From Candidatus Micrarchaeota archaeon CG_4_10_14_0_2_um_filter_60_11 (GTDB taxonomy: Archaea; Micrarchaeota; Micrarchaeia; Norongarragalinales; Norongarragalinaceae): a stretch of 30,522 nucleotides of DNA. Location: assembly GCA_002792915.1 (NCBI GenBank), contig PFPF01000020.1, positions 1 through 30,522 on the forward strand, in the 5' to 3' direction. The notes beneath the pieces were generated by a model that saw only the letters and a program-made list of their open reading frames with translations, made no database searches and was not told where the DNA came from. The position numbers and the translations under genes are program-made. This document shows positions 2,804-28,955 of this stretch, in pieces. How positions within the stretch are numbered: position 1 is the stretch's first letter; each line of letters opens with the position of its first letter.

Positions 2804-2923
2804 TGCGGCGACCGGGAGTCGAACCCGGGTCTCGAGCTTTCCTCGCTTTCTAGCGCAGGTCTTTGCCAAAAGGCAAAGAAGTGCCTTGGAAGGCTCGAAT
2901 CATAACCGTTGGACCATCGCCGC
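2804..2923 (-). tRNA. tRNA-Gly (anticodon UCC) with a roughly 48-nt intron at the canonical 37/38 position
   Basis: Minus strand reads GCGGCGA...TCGCCGC-A, a 7-bp acceptor stem. T-arm is CCGGG-TTCGACT-CCCGG. Anticodon stem CGAGC/GCTCG encloses the loop CTTCCA|A, giving anticodon TCC. The intron contains the hairpin CTTTGCC-TTTT-GGCAAAG. Exonic length is 72 nt. Confidence 0.7.
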
Positions 2924-15050: not shown

Positions 15051-17792
15051 TCACTTGTAGCGCAACAGCGCGCCGAGCCCCTTGAAAGTGGCGTAAAACT
15101 GCGAGCCTTCCGGCGTGTCGCGCGAAATCATTTCGATTGGAACCGCCTTTTCCTCCGCGCGGCCGACTATTGCATTCACCAGGTCGTGCTCGTCCACCAC
15201 CTGCCACTTGCCGCCGCACTCGCACGGTTCGGGGGAACCGGGCTTTTCCTGCAGCTTGACGCGCTCTTTCCCGCAGTTGCCGCACTTTTGTTTTATTTGC
15301 CACAATTCCATGCCTTCGGTCACGAGTAGCCGCTCGATTTGCCCGCGTTCGAGCGCGGACTGGATTTCCGCCAGGCCGTACAATGAGAGGCCGCCGGTCG
15401 AGACGCGCTTCATGAATTCGTCCAAGAGCTTCTTCTCCTTGACCGCCTCCTGGTCCGAGATGATTTCCGAGGACTTTTCCAGCACTTCGCGGATTCCGAA
15501 CTCGTCAGTGTAACCCGTGTCCACCACGCCGAGAATCTTGAGCTGGTAGTTGAACGGCGCCATTTTGACGAAGTCGTGCTTCGCCGGGCCGGGCCCGCCG
15601 ACTATCACGCCCAGGAAATTCTTTAAGCCGACGAACGCGTCCATGGCAGCGCCTATGCGCTTGTAATAGAACTCGACGCCTTCCACGTGCAGGCGGTCGT
15701 AACGGTTCGCGCTGTTATGAACTACGACGCCATTCGCTATGAAGTTGCGGGTTTCCGGAACGCTCAAATCATAAAACGCGCCCTCGACCGAACAAGGCTC
15801 CTTTTTCGCGAGTTTCGCAGGAATCACTTGAGCACAAGCAATTCTTTCGATGACGTCGGCTATCGCCTCGGCTTTCCCGGCGAGGTCACTTCCCTCCTCG
15901 CGCAACAGAACCGCACGCTTCTTGAAAACGGGCAAAACTCGCTCGGCGAAGAGGCGGCGGCTCAGCGCGCGGGCGCCGTTCAAGAACGACGGCAAGCCTT
16001 TGAAATCCGCGTTCTTCAAGCCCACCTCGCGCGCCAACCTTTTTACGAGCAAGCCGTTCACGGGCGCCTGGTCGCAGCGGTTCACACTGCACTTCGCCGA
16101 GATTATTTTCAAGAGGCCACCCTGTTTACGCGAACCCGAAAAGCCTATGTTAGAAGCGAATCGCGCCAGCGAAGCGGAATCGCTCACCTCAAGGTAGTAT
16201 TGCTGTTTTTTGCCGCTTTTTTTCGGCGCGCAGGAAGCGATTATTCCAAAGCGCAGCAAGAGGAGGCGCGCGGTTTTGACCGCGCCCTCGTTGGCCATAG
16301 CCAAGGAAATGCGCCCGCTTGAGGCTGAGCCTTCCGCGTCAAACAAGCCGCGGAGGAAGCCAGCCACGACATCGTTCGGCGAACGCATCACCTTTTCGGG
16401 CACCTGCTTGTCTGCAAGCTCGGGAAACGCCTTCGCGAACAATTCGACGAGCCATTTGTTGTAAGCCGTCGTCTCGAAACACTCACCCCACCCGGACGCG
16501 CGCTTTTTGATGCGCGTGGAAGCGCCGAAAACCGCGCCAATCATCGCTTCATAGTGCTTCGCGACTTCAAGGTCGCCCTCGTAAAAGCGCAGGCGGTTTA
16601 CGTCAAAACAACCGTCACCCAAGAAATAGCCGGTTATTTGCGCCAGTTCTGGCGTGACTTCGGCGGGAAAACAAACGAGTTTCCACTTCTCCGCGTACGC
16701 GCGAACGAAAGCGTTCGCATCAAAGCCGTAGTGCCCCAAGAGCCGTTCGAGGCGTGCTTGGCCGAAGTTTGCGTCGCCGCGCTCCAACTCCGAAACGGAA
16801 GCCTGGTCGAGTCCAGCAGCAGCCGCGGCCTCGCGCTGCAGTTCGCCCAGCGACTTGCGCTTTTCGACGAGTTTAATCCGTCCTTCCTGCGAGAGCACGG
16901 CGGTGCCTTCTGGGGCGACGGCCTCGGTCAGGACGCGTTCGGCGGGCGAAGGAAGTTTTGAAGCGAGCAGCAAAAAGTCGCCTTCCTTCAAATCTTCGGC
17001 GCGCTTTTCTTCGAAGCCGTTTTCGGTTACCGTGAAGAAGACGTGTTCGGGGGTCACCTTCAAAGTTGAAACGGGGTTGCGCGTTTTCAACAAAAGCGCT
17101 TTCTGTGATTGCCGCACCGTTACCTTGTCGCACGCCGCGTCCGCCGTCTTCAACGACTTAAAATCCAAGGCTGCCAAGGAACGGCCTTCCACGGCGTTCC
17201 TTATCGGAAGCACGCTGCCGTCCGAGAAGCAAACCAACTCGTTTTCGTGAATGCACTGCCCGCCCTTGTGCACCTTCTGGTGCGCCGTGGACTCCATGCG
17301 CTTGACCACGCGGATTTGCTTGCCCTTGAGCACGGCAACCGTGGCCTCCTTCCCATCCATCACGACGAGCCCGTACTGCCCGCCGACGTCGATGAGCTCT
17401 TCCAGCGGCTCGGTAACGAACACCGACTCGCAGCGGTAGAACTGCACGGCGAGCGGCATGGGCGGCTCGATTGAGAAAAGCTCGTAATCCGTCTTGCCCT
17501 CGACTTGGCTCACGTTGCCCGCGAAAACCGCCATGCCGTTTGCGGGAGGCGTCCTGAAGTTCTTGAGGAAAGCCATGATGCGCTCGAGCGCCGCCTGCAC
17601 GTTCTTCTGGGTGGACTTGCTCTTGATGTTGGAAGCCTGCCCGTACTCGTCGCGCAGCTTGGCGACGATGTCGCTGATTTGGTAGCCGGGCGTGATGTAC
17701 ACGCTAATCAATTCAGTCCCGCGCCCGCGGTATTTCTTCAAGGCTTCGACTTGCTTCTTGAAGTCAAAACGAGCCTTCGACTCCTCCGACAT
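15051..17792 (-). CDS. prf1: Peptide chain release factor aRF1 (eRF1 homolog) interrupted by an intein at the GGQ motif
   Basis: NIKS motif (GQASNIKSKSTQKNV). GGQ is followed directly by CIHENEL... (intein) ...VVHN-SANRYDRL, which resumes aRF1 domain 2/3. Extein total is about 401 aa. Confidence 0.9.
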   Translation of the reverse strand: MSEESKARFDFKKQVEALKKYRGRGTELISVYITPGYQISDIVAKLRDEYGQASNIKSKSTQKNVQAALERIMAFLKNFRTPPANGMAVFAGNVSQVEGKTDYELFSIEPPMPLAVQFYRCESVFVTEPLEELIDVGGQYGLVVMDGKEATVAVLKGKQIRVVKRMESTAHQKVHKGGQCIHENELVCFSDGSVLPIRNAVEGRSLAALDFKSLKTADAACDKVTVRQSQKALLLKTRNPVSTLKVTPEHVFFTVTENGFEEKRAEDLKEGDFLLLASKLPSPAERVLTEAVAPEGTAVLSQEGRIKLVEKRKSLGELQREAAAAAGLDQASVSELERGDANFGQARLERLLGHYGFDANAFVRAYAEKWKLVCFPAEVTPELAQITGYFLGDGCFDVNRLRFYEGDLEVAKHYEAMIGAVFGASTRIKKRASGWGECFETTAYNKWLVELFAKAFPELADKQVPEKVMRSPNDVVAGFLRGLFDAEGSASSGRISLAMANEGAVKTARLLLLRFGIIASCAPKKSGKKQQYYLEVSDSASLARFASNIGFSGSRKQGGLLKIISAKCSVNRCDQAPVNGLLVKRLAREVGLKNADFKGLPSFLNGARALSRRLFAERVLPVFKKRAVLLREEGSDLAGKAEAIADVIERIACAQVIPAKLAKKEPCSVEGAFYDLSVPETRNFIANGVVVHNSANRYDRLHVEGVEFYYKRIGAAMDAFVGLKNFLGVIVGGPGPAKHDFVKMAPFNYQLKILGVVDTGYTDEFGIREVLEKSSEIISDQEAVKEKKLLDEFMKRVSTGGLSLYGLAEIQSALERGQIERLLVTEGMELWQIKQKCGNCGKERVKLQEKPGSPEPCECGGKWQVVDEHDLVNAIVGRAEEKAVPIEMISRDTPEGSQFYATFKGLGALLRYK
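15714..17249 (-). mobile_element. Intein (512 aa) with LAGLIDADG homing-endonuclease domain, inserted after GGQ of aRF1
   Basis: N-terminal Cys (codon at 17247-17249). Block B VTPEHVFFTV, DOD motifs ITGYFLGDGCFD and GFLRGLFDAEGSAS, C-terminal FIANGVVVHN followed by extein Ser. Internal HTH-like segment LGELQREAAAAAGLDQASVSELERG. Confidence 0.8.
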
Positions 17793-24244: not shown

Positions 24245-24299
24245 CGTTTTATACTCGCGGGCGATTAAGCCAGCGCAATCCTTGGTGGGATTAGGAATA

Positions 24300-27200
24300 A
24301 TGGCGAGCGAGGTTGACGCATTCGAGGAATTCTTCTCCAACGCCTACCGCCAGGAATTGAACGACTTGGCGTCCGGCTATCCCAAACAGCGCAGCCTGAA
24401 CGCGGACTGGGCGCTGCTATCCAAGTACAACCCGGAACTCGCGGACGCTTTCCTGAAAAACCCGGACGCCAACCTCAAGTTCGCGGAAGAGGCGGCGTCG
24501 CGCGCAATACTCGCGCCGGAAGGCAAGACGGTCAGGCCGCACGTGCGGTTCTTCAACCTCCCGCAAACCGCGGACGTGAGCGTGGAATACCTTGGGGCCG
24601 AGCAGCTGGACAAGCTCAGCCGCGTGGAAGGCGTCGTATCCTGGGTGACGGACATCCGGCCCTTGATGAAAGTCGCGCTGTGGGAGTGCATCCACTGCGA
24701 ACAGACCTTCAAGACCGTCAATGAGAAGGGAAAACTACGCAAGCCCGCGATTTGCAAGTGCGGGCGCCGCGACTTCAGGCTGGTCGAGCAGTCCAGCGAC
24801 TTCATCAACATGCAGCGCGCCCAAATGCAGGAACCCGTTGAAAAATTGCGGGGCAACCGCCCGTCCAGCCAAATCGAGGTCTGGATGGAGGACGACTTGA
24901 CGAACCAAATCGCGCCCGGGCAAAAAGTGATAGTCACGGGCATACTCCGCCTGCGCCCGAGCAAGGACAAGAGGAGCGAGCGCGGCGTTTACGAGAAATT
25001 CCTGGACGCGCAGCATTTGCACAAAATCGAGCGCGAGTTCGAGGAAATCGTGATTACGAAAGAGGAGGAAAAAGAGCTGCACGAAATCACCAAGCGGCCC
25101 AAGCTCTTCGAGGACGTGGCGCAAAGCATCGCGCCCAGCATCCGCGGCCACAACGAGCTCAAGATGGCGATTGCATTGCAGCTGTTCGGCGGAACCGCGA
25201 ACAAGGTGCTGCCCGACGGCGAGCAAATCCGCCCGGACATCCACGTATTGTTAATCGGCGACCCCGGCTGCATCATAGGCGACGAACGCGTGGCCCTCGG
25301 CAACGGCGCGATAGTCAAGATTCAAGAATTGGGGGAAACGCACCTGCAGGAAATAAGCCAGCCTTTGCTCACCGGGCAGGGTTACAAGCGCGCAACCGCC
25401 GAACGCTTTCACATTTACCGCAGCCAGCCCGTAATCGAGGTCGTCACCGAGTCGGGCAAGAGCATCAAGGGCACTTTCAACCACCCGTTGCTCGTGGTCA
25501 ACGGCATGAAACGCGATTGGAAGCGGCTGGACGAAATCATGCCCGGCGAACGCGTCGCCGTATCGGCCTGGATTCCGTGCACCATAACCGCGCCGGTCAA
25601 GACCGGTTGGAAGCCCGTCGAACACCGCTTCGGGCCGCGCTCGAAAGCCAAACTGCCGCAGACGCTGGACGCGGAAACCGCCGCGTTTCTGGGCTACGTG
25701 GCTGGCGACGGATGGGTGACGCGCACTCGCGTCGCGTTCGACGTGAACTCGGAGGAACAGGACTTGATTCCCGCCTTGACGCGAATCGCCAGGAAAAAAT
25801 TCGGTTTGGAACCGAAAGTCAGGCGCGAACAACGGCCAGGCAAAAAGCCGATGACGGTCATAGACCTCCACAGCGTGGACGTTGCGGCAAACCTGCAATT
25901 CCTGCGCGAAAAACGCGTGCCCGGCATCGTAATGCGTTCGGGCAACAAGGTTGCCGCCGCTTTCCTATCGTGGCTGTTCGAAGCCGACGGCTGCGTCTTC
26001 TCGAAGGGCCGCGGCAAGCGCGCGATTCAATTCAAATCCTCGGAAATCGAGTTCCTGCGCGACGCGCAAACGCTCTTGCTTCGCTTCGGCGTGCACTCGC
26101 GCGTAAACGGCAACAACCTGGCGATTCGCCGCGCGGGCTCAATCCGCAAGTTCGCGAAAAGCATAGGCTTCCAGTCCGCCAAAAAGAAGGCGCGGCTCGC
26201 GGAACTCGTTGCCGCCTGCAGCAGCCTGCAACACGAGCGCGGAAAAGAGTTGAGCGAGCGCGTGGTTTCAGCCAAACCCGCGGGCGTAGCCGACGTTTTC
26301 GACGTAGAAGTGCCTTCAGCCAAGCGCTTCATCGCCAACGGCATCATTTCGCACAACACGGCGAAATCCACCATTTTGGAATACGTCAGCCACTTGGCGC
26401 CCAAGAGCGTGTTCGTCTCGGGCGGCGCGGCTTCCGGCGTCGGCATGACCGCCTCCGCGGAAAAGGACAAGGACGGCGAAGGCTGGATTTTGAAGGCCGG
26501 CGCAATGGTGCTCGCCAACGGCGGCATCGCAATAATCGACGAGTTCGACAAGATGCAGGACGAGGACAGGGGCTCTATTCACGAGGCGATGGAACAGCAG
26601 AAAATCAGCGTTGCCAAGGCGGGAATAGTCACGCAGTTCTCGGCGCGGACCGCGGTTTTGGCCGCGGCGAACCCCAAGGAAGGCAGGTTCGACCCCAACA
26701 CGCCGCCGGCCGGGCAATTCAACATTTCCCCCGCGCTGTTGAGCCGCTTCGACTTGATTTTCGCAATCAAGGACGTAATCGACGAAAAACGCGACCGCGA
26801 CATGGCCGAGCACATCTTGGCGGGCCACCGCTTTGCTTCCCAAAAAGAGGCGCCGCCCGAAGGCCACCCGATCCTGCCGCGAATCGTGCCCGACACGCTG
26901 CGCAAGTACATCGCTTATGCCAGGCGCACCGCGCACCCCATATTGACGGACGAAGCCATGGAAAAAATCAAGGAATTCTACGTGGACCTCCGCCAAATCG
27001 GCATGAAGGAGAACACTTTCCCGATTACCGCCCGCCAAATCGAGGGAATAATCCGGCTGGCCGAAGCCTCCGCGAAAATGCGGTTGAGCGACCGCGTGGA
27101 AGTGCAGGACACGGAACGGGCGATTAACCTGGTCAAGTTCGTGCTCGAGGCGGTTTACGTGGACAAGACGACCGGCAAGCTGGACTCGGACGTGATTAAC

Positions 27201-27434
27201 ATCGGAAAACCCAAGTCGCGGATTGACAAGCTGCACTCGATGATGCGCATAATCAACGACTTGTCGACGAAGACGGACCTGGTGTCCAAGGATGACGCGG
27301 TGCGCGCGGCGAACGAGTTCGGCATCGACGAGACGACCGCCATCCGCCTCTTGAGCGAGCTGGAGCGCCAAGGCGACTTGTACAGCCCCCAGGCCGGCTT
27401 CATCCGTCCCACCTCAAAGCGGGATAGGGCGTGA
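24300..27434 (+). CDS. mcm: MCM replicative helicase interrupted by an intein in the Walker A (P-loop)
   Basis: Zn-finger CIHCEQTF...CKCG, Walker A split as HVLLIGDPG|C...HN|TAKSTILEY, Walker B IAIIDEFDKM, arginine finger SRFDLIF. Extein about 687 aa. The track start is TTG 24282. ATG 24300 is preferred. Confidence 0.95.
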   Translation: MASEVDAFEEFFSNAYRQELNDLASGYPKQRSLNADWALLSKYNPELADAFLKNPDANLKFAEEAASRAILAPEGKTVRPHVRFFNLPQTADVSVEYLGAEQLDKLSRVEGVVSWVTDIRPLMKVALWECIHCEQTFKTVNEKGKLRKPAICKCGRRDFRLVEQSSDFINMQRAQMQEPVEKLRGNRPSSQIEVWMEDDLTNQIAPGQKVIVTGILRLRPSKDKRSERGVYEKFLDAQHLHKIEREFEEIVITKEEEKELHEITKRPKLFEDVAQSIAPSIRGHNELKMAIALQLFGGTANKVLPDGEQIRPDIHVLLIGDPGCIIGDERVALGNGAIVKIQELGETHLQEISQPLLTGQGYKRATAERFHIYRSQPVIEVVTESGKSIKGTFNHPLLVVNGMKRDWKRLDEIMPGERVAVSAWIPCTITAPVKTGWKPVEHRFGPRSKAKLPQTLDAETAAFLGYVAGDGWVTRTRVAFDVNSEEQDLIPALTRIARKKFGLEPKVRREQRPGKKPMTVIDLHSVDVAANLQFLREKRVPGIVMRSGNKVAAAFLSWLFEADGCVFSKGRGKRAIQFKSSEIEFLRDAQTLLLRFGVHSRVNGNNLAIRRAGSIRKFAKSIGFQSAKKKARLAELVAACSSLQHERGKELSERVVSAKPAGVADVFDVEVPSAKRFIANGIISHNTAKSTILEYVSHLAPKSVFVSGGAASGVGMTASAEKDKDGEGWILKAGAMVLANGGIAIIDEFDKMQDEDRGSIHEAMEQQKISVAKAGIVTQFSARTAVLAAANPKEGRFDPNTPPAGQFNISPALLSRFDLIFAIKDVIDEKRDRDMAEHILAGHRFASQKEAPPEGHPILPRIVPDTLRKYIAYARRTAHPILTDEAMEKIKEFYVDLRQIGMKENTFPITARQIEGIIRLAEASAKMRLSDRVEVQDTERAINLVKFVLEAVYVDKTTGKLDSDVINIGKPKSRIDKLHSMMRIINDLSTKTDLVSKDDAVRAANEFGIDETTAIRLLSELERQGDLYSPQAGFIRPTSKRDRA
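25269..26357 (+). mobile_element. Intein (363 aa) with LAGLIDADG homing endonuclease, in the MCM P-loop (GDPG/TAKS site)
   Basis: CIIGDERVALGNG (block A), TFNHPLLVV (block B), FLGYVAGDGWV and WLFEADGCVF (DOD motifs), C-terminal FIANGIISHN then extein Thr. Confidence 0.85.
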
Positions 27435-27494
27435 AACACCGGCAGGCATAAGCATTAAAAGCCGCCAAAAATAGCTAAATTGTAGGGTTAAAAA

Positions 27495-28022
27495 ATGGAG
27501 TTCGAACAATTGGAGAAACTGGCGTTCGAAGCCGAAACTTCAGTAAACGCAGATATAACCTCTGGTAAAATAACTCCTGCCACTATCGATCAATTCAAAA
27601 CACTTCATGAAGGGATGATGGCAGCGGCAGATGAGTTTTATACCACTCTTCAACACAACCTCACCGCTCAAATTATAGCTTATGGCGCCTCAGAAACAAC
27701 TGCAAAGTTATGCAAAGGTATCTCCGAAAATTTGAAGTCGGCTAAAAATAGAGGGGATAATCCTATTGCCGCCGAACGCCTAGTTGAACGAAAATATTTG
27801 TTTTACTTACAGTTAGTTATATCCGGCCTTAAAATAACTCATAAAACTAAAGCAATTTCTAATGAAAATTATAATTTGATAAACGACTCTTTGCGCACAT
27901 TAGTTAGACTAGCGGATGAAGATAATATTTACCGCCCAGAATTAACTGAAAATGAAGCTGTTGAAACCGCAGTAGCTAATGCAATTAATGCGGTCGAACC
28001 AGAAATTGACCAGCATGACTAA
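27495..28022 (+). CDS. Hypothetical alpha-helical protein, first gene of the AT-rich island
   Basis: 175 aa. Codon usage and GC content differ sharply from the rest of the window. The stop overlaps the next start in an ATGACTAA arrangement. Confidence 0.5.
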   Translation: MEFEQLEKLAFEAETSVNADITSGKITPATIDQFKTLHEGMMAAADEFYTTLQHNLTAQIIAYGASETTAKLCKGISENLKSAKNRGDNPIAAERLVERKYLFYLQLVISGLKITHKTKAISNENYNLINDSLRTLVRLADEDNIYRPELTENEAVETAVANAINAVEPEIDQHD

Positions 28023-28827
28023 AACCTCTTTTTTGTTTTTGGATAGTAACATAATTCTAGGCGCAGCTCAAGAGAAACTCAAGGACTACTTAAAAATCGA
28101 AGTTCCGCGAGCGGGTTCACTAATTCAACCAAATGAATATCATCGCTATTCGCTTGATTTAATTGAAAAAAGTGGCCACGAGCAGTATTTGGAACGATTC
28201 ACCACATACACTGTAAAAATAGAAGTCAACAAGCTAGTCAGCGATCCGGAAATAATAGAAAAGAAAATAGTTTCCAAGATTTGGAACACTGCTGCGGTAA
28301 GTGGTTTGTCAGAGGATGATAAGAAAATAATAATGCCCATAATTTACCGTGTTTTTTTCTTGAAACTACCCGGGTTGGCTATTGACTTGCTAAATCATTT
28401 GAGCTCTAAGTCAGTTGAAGAAAATGAGCGAAAACAAGCGCTAGATGAACTGAAAACTAAAGTTTTCATTCCAATTTTCAGACGCAAGGGATTACTTAAA
28501 CAACATTTAGAGCTTTCGGGCCAAGAACATTTATTCAGATATGAACAAAACGAATACCAGACTTTGTTCTATGTCTTTGAGCGTTTTGGTAACTGGGATC
28601 AAAATAGGGATGTAAAAATATTAGCCGAAGCTATTTGCTGCTTTAGACGATTTAAAGAGCAATATAAAGAAACGCCAAATTTCTATTTTGTTTCAAACGA
28701 CAGATTGTTCCGAGCCAATAGGGTTAATGGGGGCAAACCATATCTAGAAATAATAAACGCAGTATATAGCAACTTTGAAATAAGTTTATGCGCTCCTAAG
28801 CATGCCATTGAACAACTTAATTTATAG
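28015..28827 (+). CDS. Hypothetical protein with PIN-like nuclease signature, second gene of the AT-rich island
   Basis: Start at MTKTSFLFLDSNIILGAAQ, a first-strand Asp like PIN vlDtnvli. Later DVKILAEAICC (D..ilA.A) and FYFVSNDRLF (t.D..f) resemble the 3rd and 4th PIN acidic motifs, with a long insertion between. The track start at 27979 is less likely. Confidence 0.45.
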   Translation: MTKTSFLFLDSNIILGAAQEKLKDYLKIEVPRAGSLIQPNEYHRYSLDLIEKSGHEQYLERFTTYTVKIEVNKLVSDPEIIEKKIVSKIWNTAAVSGLSEDDKKIIMPIIYRVFFLKLPGLAIDLLNHLSSKSVEENERKQALDELKTKVFIPIFRRKGLLKQHLELSGQEHLFRYEQNEYQTLFYVFERFGNWDQNRDVKILAEAICCFRRFKEQYKETPNFYFVSNDRLFRANRVNGGKPYLEIINAVYSNFEISLCAPKHAIEQLNL

Positions 28828-28955
28828 ACCCAAACACGCGCGTACCCAAATCCCAAGTTTTTTAAATAAGGGGAGCCGTAGTTATGGTAACTGCTTATCC
28901 CGCAGTCACTACCGTCGCGCGCTTGCGCGCCCCGCGTAGGAGGGATTGAAACGAA

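What the first reader, a model, noticed from the sequence alone, without database searches (positions are those of the whole stretch)
15714..17249. Large LAGLIDADG intein inserted exactly after the catalytic GGQ motif of release factor aRF1
The aRF1 reading frame reads HKGGQ then Cys-Ile-His..., and after 512 aa resumes with ...VVHN-SANRYDRL. The intein therefore sits inside the peptidyl-tRNA hydrolysis loop, so aRF1 is non-functional until it splices. To my knowledge aRF1 is not among the classical, frequently cited intein hosts (polymerases, RFC, RNR, MCM, VMA, IF2 and so on). The intein carries both DOD motifs (full homing endonuclease) plus an HTH-like insert. It also shares a near-identical C-terminal block with the MCM intein in this window (RNFIANGVVVHN versus KRFIANGIISHN), suggesting a common intein lineage spreading within the genome.
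Basis: partly seen in the sequence, partly recalled or inferred. Interest (0 to 1): 0.6.

Follow-up and report, generated by a model that had tools for sequence, protein, structure and literature searches.

The report
Intein inside release factor aRF1
The gene for the archaeal protein that ends translation (aRF1) is interrupted, exactly at its catalytic GGQ motif, by a genuine self-splicing intein with a homing endonuclease; this is an ordinary kind of element in a host protein I found no paper describing, and it is common in DPANN archaea.

Summary
Confirmed, with corrections. The ORF at 15051..17792 (-) encodes a 913-aa aRF1 precursor. A 514-aa class-1 intein (15714..17255, not 512 aa or 17249) lies between Gln179 of GGQ and the invariant Ser. 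Removing it restores a 399-aa aRF1 that matches the aRF1 equivalog model end to end and aligns without a gap across GGQ-SA to a solved aRF1. All splicing residues and both LAGLIDADG catalytic acids are present. The insert also carries an XRE-type HTH and a helical region after the endonuclease. The predicted structure (pLDDT 89) matches solved endonuclease-bearing inteins and aRF1.

The allele is not rare. At least 89 protein clusters from Micrarchaeota, Aenigmarchaeota, Woesearchaeota and Nanohaloarchaea carry an intein at this same site, full-size or mini. Syntenic intein-free orthologs exist, up to 87% identical. I found no paper describing it.

The proposed shared lineage with the MCM intein in this window is not supported. 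That intein scores 51.6 bits, below more than 150 other inteins, and the shared C-terminal block is the generic intein block G.

Side observation in related genomes: most Aenigmatarchaeota aRF1 orthologs replace the "invariant" GGQ glutamine with Met, Trp, Tyr or Phe, with or without the intein. That looks more surprising than the intein.

The parts
15051..17792 (-). aRF1 precursor ORF (913 aa plus stop): N-extein, intein, C-extein
   Evidence: TIGR03676 scores 413.7 bits in two stretches on the precursor. 100% identical to NCBI COX86_01410, Candidatus Micrarchaeota archaeon CG_4_10_14_0_2_um_filter_60.
17256..17792 (-). N-extein, aa 1-179 (aRF1 domain N and the start of domain M). It holds NIKS (aa 55-58) and YxCxxxF (aa 119-125), and ends in GGQ.
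   Evidence: Pfam eRF1_1 covers aa 14-133. Alignments A1 and A3.
17256..17264 (-). GGQ codons (GGC GGG CAG), aa 177-179. Gln179 is the intein's -1 residue.
15714..17255 (-). Intein, 514 aa, from Cys1 to His513-Asn514
16953..17255 (-). N-terminal part of the Hint splicing domain (approximate limits): block A Cys1 and block B T68-P-E-H71
   Evidence: TIGR01445 intein_Nterm covers aa 180-254. Beta strands span precursor aa 186-277 in the model. T/S and H are conserved in 49/49 full-size homologs.
16722..16865 (-). XRE-type helix-turn-helix (Pfam HTH_3), lying between the Hint N-lobe and the endonuclease
   Evidence: HTH_3 at precursor aa 310-357, 25.3 bits against a cutoff of 23. Five helices at aa 302-366 in the model. 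Weak match to controller protein C.BclI, 2b5a.
16134..16658 (-). LAGLIDADG homing-endonuclease core (approximate limits). Motif 1 ITGYFLGDG lies at 16611..16643 with catalytic Asp214. Motif 2 LRGLFDAEG lies at 16329..16361 with catalytic Glu308.
   Evidence: LAGLIDADG_3 1e-24 in two stretches. The catalytic residues are D in 47/49 and E in 49/49 full-size homologs. Foldseek matches 7qss, 1dq3 and 2cw7.
15837..16133 (-). Helical region after the endonuclease (precursor aa 554-652). It aligns with the C-terminal part of PI-PfuI and probably makes extra DNA contacts.
   Evidence: phmmer aligns intein 208-511 with 1dq3 143-450. Helices at aa 554-652. The function is inferred.
15714..15830 (-). C-terminal part of the Hint domain: block F (FYDLSV, Asp496) and block G (FIANGVVVHN)
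   Evidence: TIGR01443 intein_Cterm covers aa 673-694. D, H and N are each conserved in 49/49.
15051..15713 (-). C-extein, aa 694-913 plus stop. It starts with the invariant Ser (+1 nucleophile) and holds the rest of domain M and domain C with a Cys4 zinc-ribbon insert.
   Evidence: Pfam eRF1_2 and eRF1_3. S694 is invariant in alignment A1.
25269..26357 (+). Comparator, not part of the element: a 363-aa LAGLIDADG intein in MCM at the Walker A loop (GDPG|C...HN|TAKS)

Best explanation
This is the aRF1 (class-I release factor) gene of a Micrarchaeota archaeon. It is interrupted in frame by a 514-aa class-1 intein, inserted between the catalytic Gln of GGQ and the invariant Ser that follows.

Shown by sequence, profile and fold comparison:
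- The insert is a split Hint splicing domain with Cys1, T-x-x-H, block F Asp and terminal His-Asn, followed by Ser at +1.
- Into it are nested an XRE-type HTH, a two-motif LAGLIDADG endonuclease with both catalytic acids, and a helical region.
- Deleting exactly these 514 residues restores a canonical aRF1.

Inferred from the established class-1 intein mechanism:
- After translation, Cys1 makes a thioester with Gln179.
- Ser+1 attacks that thioester.
- Asn514 cyclises to release the intein, and an O-to-N shift leaves a normal ...KGGQ-SANRY... loop.
- Until that happens, a roughly 57-kDa domain sits at the tip of the loop that must enter the peptidyl-transferase centre, so the precursor should be inactive.
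- The freed intein is expected to cut intein-less aRF1 alleles at the GGQ-coding DNA and copy itself in (homing).

That model fits the mix of full-size, mini-intein and empty alleles seen among close relatives.
For: - Junction and length.
- Pfam and NCBIfam domains.
- The spliced extein matches TIGR03676 over positions 2-402 of 403 at 439.5 bits. It aligns gap-free across KGGQSA.R..RL with solved aRF1 4af1, E 3e-81.
- The AlphaFold model has pLDDT 89.4. Foldseek finds the TliVMA intein 7qss (E 9e-23, TMt 0.74), PI-PfuI 1dq3, PI-PkoII 2cw7, and aRF1/eRF1 structures.
- 77 intein-bearing aRF1 clusters all read GGx|C...HN|S, plus 13 more in Aenigmarchaeota.
- In 49 full-size homologs, the splicing residues are conserved in 49/49 and the endonuclease catalytic acids in 47-49/49.
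- Intein-free orthologs reach 87% (P0084) and 74% (P0085) identity. They share the M50 peptidase / small ORF / aRF1 / TruD neighbourhood and have an uninterrupted CAA|TCN junction.
- Of the 150 best 50%-identity cluster representatives matching the intein, the best 34 are all aRF1-hosted, and 60 of 150 overall.
Against: - Neither splicing nor endonuclease activity has been measured; both rest on conserved residues and fold.
- Only 30 kb of the genome is visible, so a second intein-free aRF1 elsewhere cannot be excluded.
- Intein GC3 (0.69) is lower than extein GC3 (0.83). This could mean relaxed selection rather than active mobility.
- Pairwise intein and extein identities are correlated (Spearman 0.58), so much of the inheritance may be vertical rather than by homing.
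Confidence: 0.9

Rival explanations
1. The intein is a conditional switch. Splicing responds to redox state, temperature or another signal, so the supply of active release factor, and hence translation termination, is gated after translation.
For: The position on the catalytic loop makes activity depend fully on splicing. The allele has been retained across several DPANN phyla, including mini-inteins without an endonuclease that cannot persist by homing. Conditional splicing is documented for other archaeal inteins (my own knowledge, for example RadA and MoaA inteins).
Against: No sensor feature was found. The second Cys at intein position 9 is not conserved: P0004 has Thr there. The mix of empty, mini and full alleles is what a selfish homing cycle predicts without any host benefit.
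Confidence: 0.1
2. The intein still splices but its endonuclease is inactive. The element is now only inherited vertically, as a resident passenger.
For: Intein and extein identities are correlated. Intein GC is close to the host's (0.575 vs 0.596), which suggests long residence.
Against: Both catalytic acids are present here and conserved in 47-49 of 49 full-size homologs, with no frameshifts or stops. Some inteins are more alike than their exteins: P0024 vs P0031 is 65% for the intein and 54% for the extein, which suggests transfer. Closely related empty alleles exist.
Confidence: 0.25
3. The aRF1 intein and the MCM intein in this window are a single lineage that recently spread within this genome.
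For: The C-terminal blocks are similar, RNFIANGVVVHN vs KRFIANGIISHN. Both are LAGLIDADG inteins.
Against: BLASTP gives 28% identity over the endonuclease core only. Lengths are 514 vs 363 aa, and the MCM intein has no HTH and no post-endonuclease region. phmmer gives 51.6 bits to the MCM intein, against 100-471 bits for 150 other cluster representatives, and 926 representatives have E <= 1e-10. The block is generic: 16 of 90 inteins from non-aRF1 hosts match F[IV]ANGx[IVL]xHN.
Confidence: 0.03
4. The insert is a non-splicing mobile insertion that has inactivated this aRF1 copy, making it a pseudogene.
For: None specific. The rest of the genome was not available to check.
Against: The 913-codon frame is uninterrupted. 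Every splice-site residue is intact. The extein is 87% identical to an intein-free ortholog and scores 439 bits on the equivalog model. Synteny with the intein-free loci is conserved.
Confidence: 0.03

Closest known systems
PI-PfuI (Pyrococcus furiosus ribonucleotide reductase intein, PDB 1DQ3)
   Same: It is the best sequence match among solved structures (E 4e-12). The alignment runs from the first LAGLIDADG motif through the post-endonuclease region to block G. The fold match is E 8.5e-19. It has the same class-1 splicing chemistry and two-motif endonuclease, plus an accessory domain between the endonuclease and the C-terminal splicing segment.
   Different: The host protein and insertion site differ. 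PI-PfuI has no XRE-type HTH between the Hint N-lobe and the endonuclease. Identity is only about 18%.
Endonuclease-bearing VMA inteins of Thermococcus litoralis and Pyrococcus horikoshii (PDB 7QSS, 7QSU, 7QST)
   Same: They are the best fold matches (E 9e-23, TM-score 0.74 normalised to the target). The Hint plus LAGLIDADG architecture is the same, and they also insert in a catalytic loop of an essential protein.
   Different: The host is the V-type ATPase A subunit. They lack the HTH_3 module and are shorter.
HTH_3-bearing LAGLIDADG inteins in archaeal MCM, FttA/aCPSF1 and Top6A
   Same: They are among the nearest non-aRF1 relatives by sequence (150-156 bits); the HTH_3-less RadA inteins score 138-147 bits. 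They share the order Hint-N, HTH_3, LAGLIDADG x2, Hint-C. The HTH module is therefore a family trait and not unique to this intein.
   Different: The host proteins and homing sites differ. The first 34 database matches are all aRF1-hosted, so the aRF1 inteins form their own group.
Inteins in other translation factors (archaeal IF2/aIF5B inteins)
   Same: An intein in a core translation factor. The NCBIfam IF-2 intein-containing model matches the intein part.
   Different: The factor and site differ. The 2015 survey by Novikova et al. lists aIF2 but no release factor among the archaeal hosts in the passages I searched, and it says that core translation and transcription components contain few inteins.

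Membership tests
Class-1 intein | N-terminal nucleophile (Cys or Ser) as first residue (block A) | tested here: met
   Cys180 of the precursor is intein residue 1. It is Cys in 49/49 full-size homologs.
Class-1 intein | Block B T-x-x-H motif | tested here: met
   T68-P-E-H71. T or S is present in 49/49 and H in 49/49.
Class-1 intein | Blocks F and G with a penultimate His and terminal Asn, followed by Cys, Ser or Thr at +1 | tested here: met
   FYDLSV (Asp496), then ...VVHN|S. TIGR01443 scores 32.8 bits against a cutoff of 15.6. Each of D, H and N is conserved in 49/49, and the +1 Ser is invariant.
Class-1 intein | Hint fold formed by the N- and C-terminal segments | tested here: met
   Pfam Intein_splicing covers intein aa 17-514, E 2.3e-19. 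The model has pLDDT 89.4 and matches solved inteins.
Class-1 intein | Precise in-frame insertion in a conserved host site, with intein-free orthologs | tested here: met
   The spliced product aligns gap-free to 4af1 and to TIGR03676. Empty syntenic alleles are L003, L004 and L005.
Class-1 intein | Autocatalytic protein splicing | not testable with these tools
   This needs expression of the precursor.
LAGLIDADG (dodecapeptide) homing endonuclease | Two LAGLIDADG helices, each ending in a catalytic acidic residue | tested here: met
   ITGYFLGDG (Asp214) and LRGLFDAEG (Glu308). LAGLIDADG_3 scores 1e-24 in two stretches.
LAGLIDADG (dodecapeptide) homing endonuclease | Site-specific cleavage of the intein-less allele | not testable with these tools
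   Inferred only. Full-size, mini and empty alleles coexist.
aRF1/eRF1 class-I release factor (TIGR03676 equivalog) | Full-length match above the curated cutoff, with three domains (eRF1_1, eRF1_2, eRF1_3) | tested here: met
   439.5 bits against a cutoff of 234.7, covering positions 2-402 of 403. All three Pfam domains are present.
aRF1/eRF1 class-I release factor (TIGR03676 equivalog) | NIKS, YxCxxxF and GGQ motifs | tested here: met
   NIKS at aa 55-58, YRCESVF at aa 119-125 and GGQ at aa 177-179.
   51.6 bits, ranking below the 150 listed representatives. Identity is 28% over the endonuclease core only.

The most novel reading that the evidence does not exclude
The aRF1 intein is more than a selfish passenger. 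Because it sits on the catalytic Gln, its splicing rate sets the supply of active release factor, and in these tiny-genome DPANN archaea it works as a condition-dependent gate on translation termination.

A more remote variant: selection on the intein's -1 residue, or co-conversion during homing, helped the 'invariant' Gln to be replaced by Met, Trp, Tyr or Phe in Aenigmatarchaeota aRF1, where the same intein site is also occupied.
Probability: 0.08. Interest if true: 0.7.

Novelty: new member of a known kind. Interest (0 to 1): 0.4.

Why it matters
- It adds the class-I release factor, at its catalytic GGQ loop, to the list of intein hosts. The 2015 survey by Novikova et al. describes core translation components as containing few inteins.
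- It fits the rule that inteins sit in the most conserved, functionally critical sites.
- It gives a natural precursor in which termination activity should depend wholly on splicing. That could be useful for engineered control of termination.
- There is a practical annotation problem. NCBI records name these genes 'hypothetical protein', 'helix-turn-helix domain-containing protein' or 'LAGLIDADG family homing endonuclease'. An essential gene is therefore easily missed in DPANN genome annotation.
- The side observation may matter more. Orthologous aRF1 of most Aenigmatarchaeota lacks the GGQ glutamine. That would give a natural test of what the 'invariant' Gln is needed for.

Tried and rejected
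- **Literature.** Terms covered intein with aRF1, eRF1, release factor, DPANN and Micrarchaeota, plus GGQ with Aenigma*. No paper describes an aRF1/eRF1 intein or a non-GGQ aRF1. 'ARF1' mostly returned the ADP-ribosylation factor.
- **Specific papers.** The Bodo saltans virus paper mentions eRF1 and inteins separately. The text of Novikova et al. 2015 has no release factor, and its supplements are not held. The Anaeramoeba intein paper has none.
- **Limits of the search.** InBase and other intein databases could not be queried. The library lacks most subscription journals, so absence of a paper is weak evidence.
- **Gln loss as a by-product of the intein: rejected.** I first suspected this for the four intein-bearing homologs with GGM, GGY or GGW. 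But 107 intein-free Aenigmarchaeota proteins also lack Gln.
- **A conserved Cys1-Cys9 redox pair in the intein: rejected.** Position 9 is not conserved.
- **Low-GC island.** PADLOC and PHROGs scans of the island ORFs and the upstream 156-aa ORF gave nothing significant.
- **Not achievable.** The whole genome of the window organism or of Aenigmatarchaeota could not be scanned for a second aRF1 copy.
Full report
**1. Observation**

The ORF at 15051..17792 (-) is 913 codons long. It reads ...STAHQKVHKGGQ|CIHENELVCFSDG...ETRNFIANGVVVHN|SANRYDRLHVEG....
- GGQ is aa 177-179.
- The insert runs from Cys180 to Asn693. That is 514 aa, or 1542 nt, at window 15714..17255.
The upper one (17249) and the length (512 aa) are two codons short.

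**2. Identity of host and insert**

Pfam finds eRF1_1, eRF1_2 and eRF1_3 in the flanks. In the insert it finds Intein_splicing (2.3e-19), LAGLIDADG_3 (1e-24, two stretches) and HTH_3 (25.3 bits, cutoff 23).

NCBIfam places the precursor in the aRF1 equivalog TIGR03676 in two stretches. After removal of the 514 residues, the 399-aa product matches positions 2-402 of 403 at 439.5 bits, against a cutoff of 234.7. The intein N- and C-terminal models also hit.

The spliced sequence aligns without a gap across ...KGGQSA.R..RL... to the solved archaeal aRF1 4af1 (E 3e-81) and to eRF1 structures.

An AlphaFold2 model of the precursor, built on a 77-sequence alignment, has mean pLDDT 89.4. Foldseek against the PDB returns these matches:
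- the endonuclease-bearing TliVMA intein 7qss (E 9e-23, TM 0.74 normalised to the target);
- aRF1 4af1;
- PI-PfuI 1dq3;
- PI-PkoII 2cw7;
- PI-SceI.

By sequence, the closest solved intein is PI-PfuI. That alignment extends from the first LAGLIDADG motif through the helical region after the endonuclease to block G.

**3. Anatomy and likely activity**

The intein has every class-1 splicing residue:
- Cys1;
- block B T68-P-E-H71;
- block F Asp496;
- His513-Asn514;
- Ser at +1.

Both LAGLIDADG motifs keep their catalytic acids: ITGYFLGDG has Asp214 and LRGLFDAEG has Glu308. In 49 full-size homologs the splicing residues are conserved in 49/49, with block B Thr conservatively replaced by Ser in four, and the catalytic acids in 47/49 and 49/49. 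This argues that both functions are under selection.

An XRE-type five-helix HTH (precursor aa 302-366) lies between the Hint N-lobe and the endonuclease. A helical region (aa 554-652) follows the endonuclease. I infer that both add DNA contacts for target recognition, as accessory domains do in PI-SceI and PI-PfuI. That comparison is from my own knowledge and was not tested here.

The mechanism in the best explanation is the standard class-1 pathway. It is inferred, not measured. The -1 residue is the catalytic Gln itself, and the +1 nucleophile is the invariant Ser of the GGQ-S loop. The precursor therefore carries a roughly 57-kDa domain on the loop that must reach the peptidyl-transferase centre, and should be inactive until it splices.

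**4. Distribution**

The protein is 100% identical to NCBI COX86_01410 from a Candidatus Micrarchaeota MAG, where it is annotated 'hypothetical protein'.

That search returned 77 further or identical aRF1 clusters carrying an insert. All are at the same site, GGx|C...HN|S.
- Intein lengths are 139-217 aa for minis, about 430-445 aa without the HTH, and about 500-577 aa with it.
- Source names are Micrarchaeota, Fermentimicrarchaeum, 'DPANN group', Nanohaloarchaea, Aenigmarchaeota and Woesearchaeota.
- Some JGI entries are already labelled 'eRF1/intein/homing endonuclease'.
- NCBI entries are mostly labelled 'helix-turn-helix domain-containing protein' or 'LAGLIDADG family homing endonuclease'.

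An exhaustive HMMER search of 1.84 billion cluster representatives with the intein alone gave 4113 hits at E <= 0.001. The best 34 are all aRF1-hosted, as are 60 of the best 150.

Intein-free orthologs are common. The spliced extein is 87% identical to P0084 and 74% to P0085. Their loci share the window's neighbourhood of M50 peptidase, small ORF, aRF1 and TruD, and their DNA reads straight through ...GGN CAA|TCN GCT....

Pairwise intein and extein identities are correlated (Spearman 0.58). There are exceptions where inteins are more alike than their exteins: P0024 vs P0031 is 65% for the intein against 54% for the extein. This suggests mostly vertical descent with some transfer. Intein GC3 is 0.69 against 0.83 for the extein.

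Overall the pattern of full, mini and empty alleles is the classical homing cycle.

**5. The MCM-intein link**

The window's MCM gene (24282..27434, +) carries a 363-aa intein at 25269..26357, in the Walker A loop (GDPG|C...HN|TAKS).
- BLASTP between the two inteins gives 28% identity over about 200 aa of the endonuclease core, plus the C-terminal block.
- With phmmer the MCM intein scores 51.6 bits. The 150 listed representatives score 100-471 bits, and 926 representatives reach E <= 1e-10.
- The motif F[IV]ANGx[IVL]xHN occurs in 16 of 90 inteins from other hosts.

The shared block is the generic block G. The two inteins are no more related than archaeal LAGLIDADG inteins in general. The nearest non-aRF1 relatives are inteins in other organisms' MCM, FttA/aCPSF1, Top6A and RadA. 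The MCM, FttA/aCPSF1 and Top6A inteins also have HTH_3, so the HTH is a trait of this intein family.

**6. Novelty**

Nine of the ten full-text searches targeted an aRF1/eRF1 intein or inteins in these archaea. None found a paper describing one (and related calls). Novikova et al. 2015 (PMC4760082) list aIF2 but no release factor in the passages I searched, and they remark that core translation components contain few inteins. NCBIfam has intein-containing exception models for Tes, GyrA and RtcB-family proteins, but none for aRF1 appeared among the matches.

I could not query InBase. From memory it lists no aRF1 allele.

I therefore rate this a new member of a known kind. It is a standard intein in an undescribed host and site, and it is abundant in public DPANN data.

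**7. Side observation in related genomes**

Four intein-bearing homologs read GGM|C, GGY|C or GGW|C instead of GGQ|C. The ATG and TGG codons were checked in the DNA.

I searched with the spliced extein of one of them (P0064, Aenigmarchaeota). All 120 best hits lack the Gln:
- 90 are intein-free GGM;
- 8 are GGY;
- 5 are GGF;
- 4 are GGW;
- 13 are intein-bearing GGM.

A scan of GTDB species genomes returned 80 loci, all from different assemblies and mostly named Aenigmatarchaeota. They split into 28 GGM, 33 GGW, 3 GGY and 16 GGQ.

Further checks:
- The residue is clade-specific on a neighbour-joining tree.
- GGM and GGY loci share class-I aminoacyl-tRNA synthetase and TatD neighbours with the GGQ loci, so they are orthologs and not a paralogous family.
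- The variants score 450-507 bits on the aRF1 equivalog model, end to end.
- Only position 179 varies, while G177, G178 and S180 stay invariant. In some of them NIKS also varies: NVKD, NIKL and NIKA.
- No second aRF1 copy from any of these genomes appeared among the 80 best loci, although sister-clade GGQ proteins at 46-52% identity did.
- Three full-text searches found no report.

From my own knowledge, biochemical work on bacterial RFs (Shaw and Green 2007) and on eRF1 suggests that the Gln side chain is not strictly needed for catalysis, so such factors may be active. This was not tested here and deserves its own study.

**8. Verdict**

The element is an ordinary class-1 LAGLIDADG intein that very probably splices to give functional aRF1. 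It is widespread rather than unique. The proposed kinship with the MCM intein is not supported. Interest is moderate at 0.4.

Noticed in passing
Related loci L001, L002 and L006-L085; proteins P0058, P0064-P0066 and P0193-P0312 (not in the window): Most Aenigmatarchaeota aRF1 orthologs replace the 'invariant' Gln of GGQ with Met, Trp, Tyr or Phe, with or without the intein. All 120 best hits to one such extein are non-Q. Of 80 GTDB species loci, 64 are non-Q (28 GGM, 33 GGW, 3 GGY) and 16 are GGQ. The residue is clade-specific. GGM and GGY loci are syntenic with the GGQ loci. The variants score 450-507 bits on the aRF1 equivalog model. No second copy was seen, and no paper was found.
   Followed up: partly
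Proteins P0236, P0269 and P0270 (Aenigmatarchaeota aRF1): The stop-codon-recognition motif NIKS also varies in some of these non-GGQ aRF1 proteins: NVKD, NIKL and NIKA.
   Followed up: no
window 25269..26357 (+), within the MCM ORF 24282..27434: A second intein in the window. It is 363 aa with a LAGLIDADG endonuclease, inserted in the MCM Walker A loop (GDPG|C...HN|TAKS). It is only distantly related to the aRF1 intein.
   Followed up: partly
window about 27400..28900: A low-GC island (0.38-0.39, against about 0.60 for the window) between MCM and ribosomal protein L1. Its two ORFs (27495..28022 and 27979..28827) have no significant Pfam, PADLOC or PHROGs match. It is probably foreign DNA.
   Followed up: partly
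window 2804..2923 (-): A 120-nt tRNA match in Rfam (47.4 bits) that ARAGORN did not call. Its length suggests an intron-containing archaeal tRNA.
   Followed up: no
Proteins P0329 (1452 aa) and P0069/P0070 (1187-1188 aa): These are aRF1 precursors with more than the GGQ-site intein. P0329 has two Intein_splicing stretches, with about 500 extra residues between domain N and GGQ. P0069 and P0070 have about 245 extra residues before GGQ. aRF1 may therefore have at least a second intein site.
   Followed up: partly
window 15711..15713 compared with L003 and L004: The +1 Ser codon is AGC in the intein-bearing allele, but TCA or TCT in the two intein-free orthologs. That is a two-step codon difference right at the junction. 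It could be a co-conversion tract or a change that makes the site immune to the endonuclease.
   Followed up: no
Proteins P0351, P0352, P0357 and P0358: LAGLIDADG inteins carrying an XRE-type HTH_3 module also occur in MCM, FttA/aCPSF1, a metallo-beta-lactamase-fold protein and Top6A. This points to a modular HTH-bearing intein family across several hosts.
   Followed up: partly
NCBI and JGI names of P0001, P0004, P0010-P0012, P0029, P0037 and P0046: Intein-bearing aRF1 genes are named 'hypothetical protein', 'helix-turn-helix domain-containing protein' or 'LAGLIDADG family homing endonuclease' in NCBI records. The release factor is therefore hidden in annotation.
   Followed up: no
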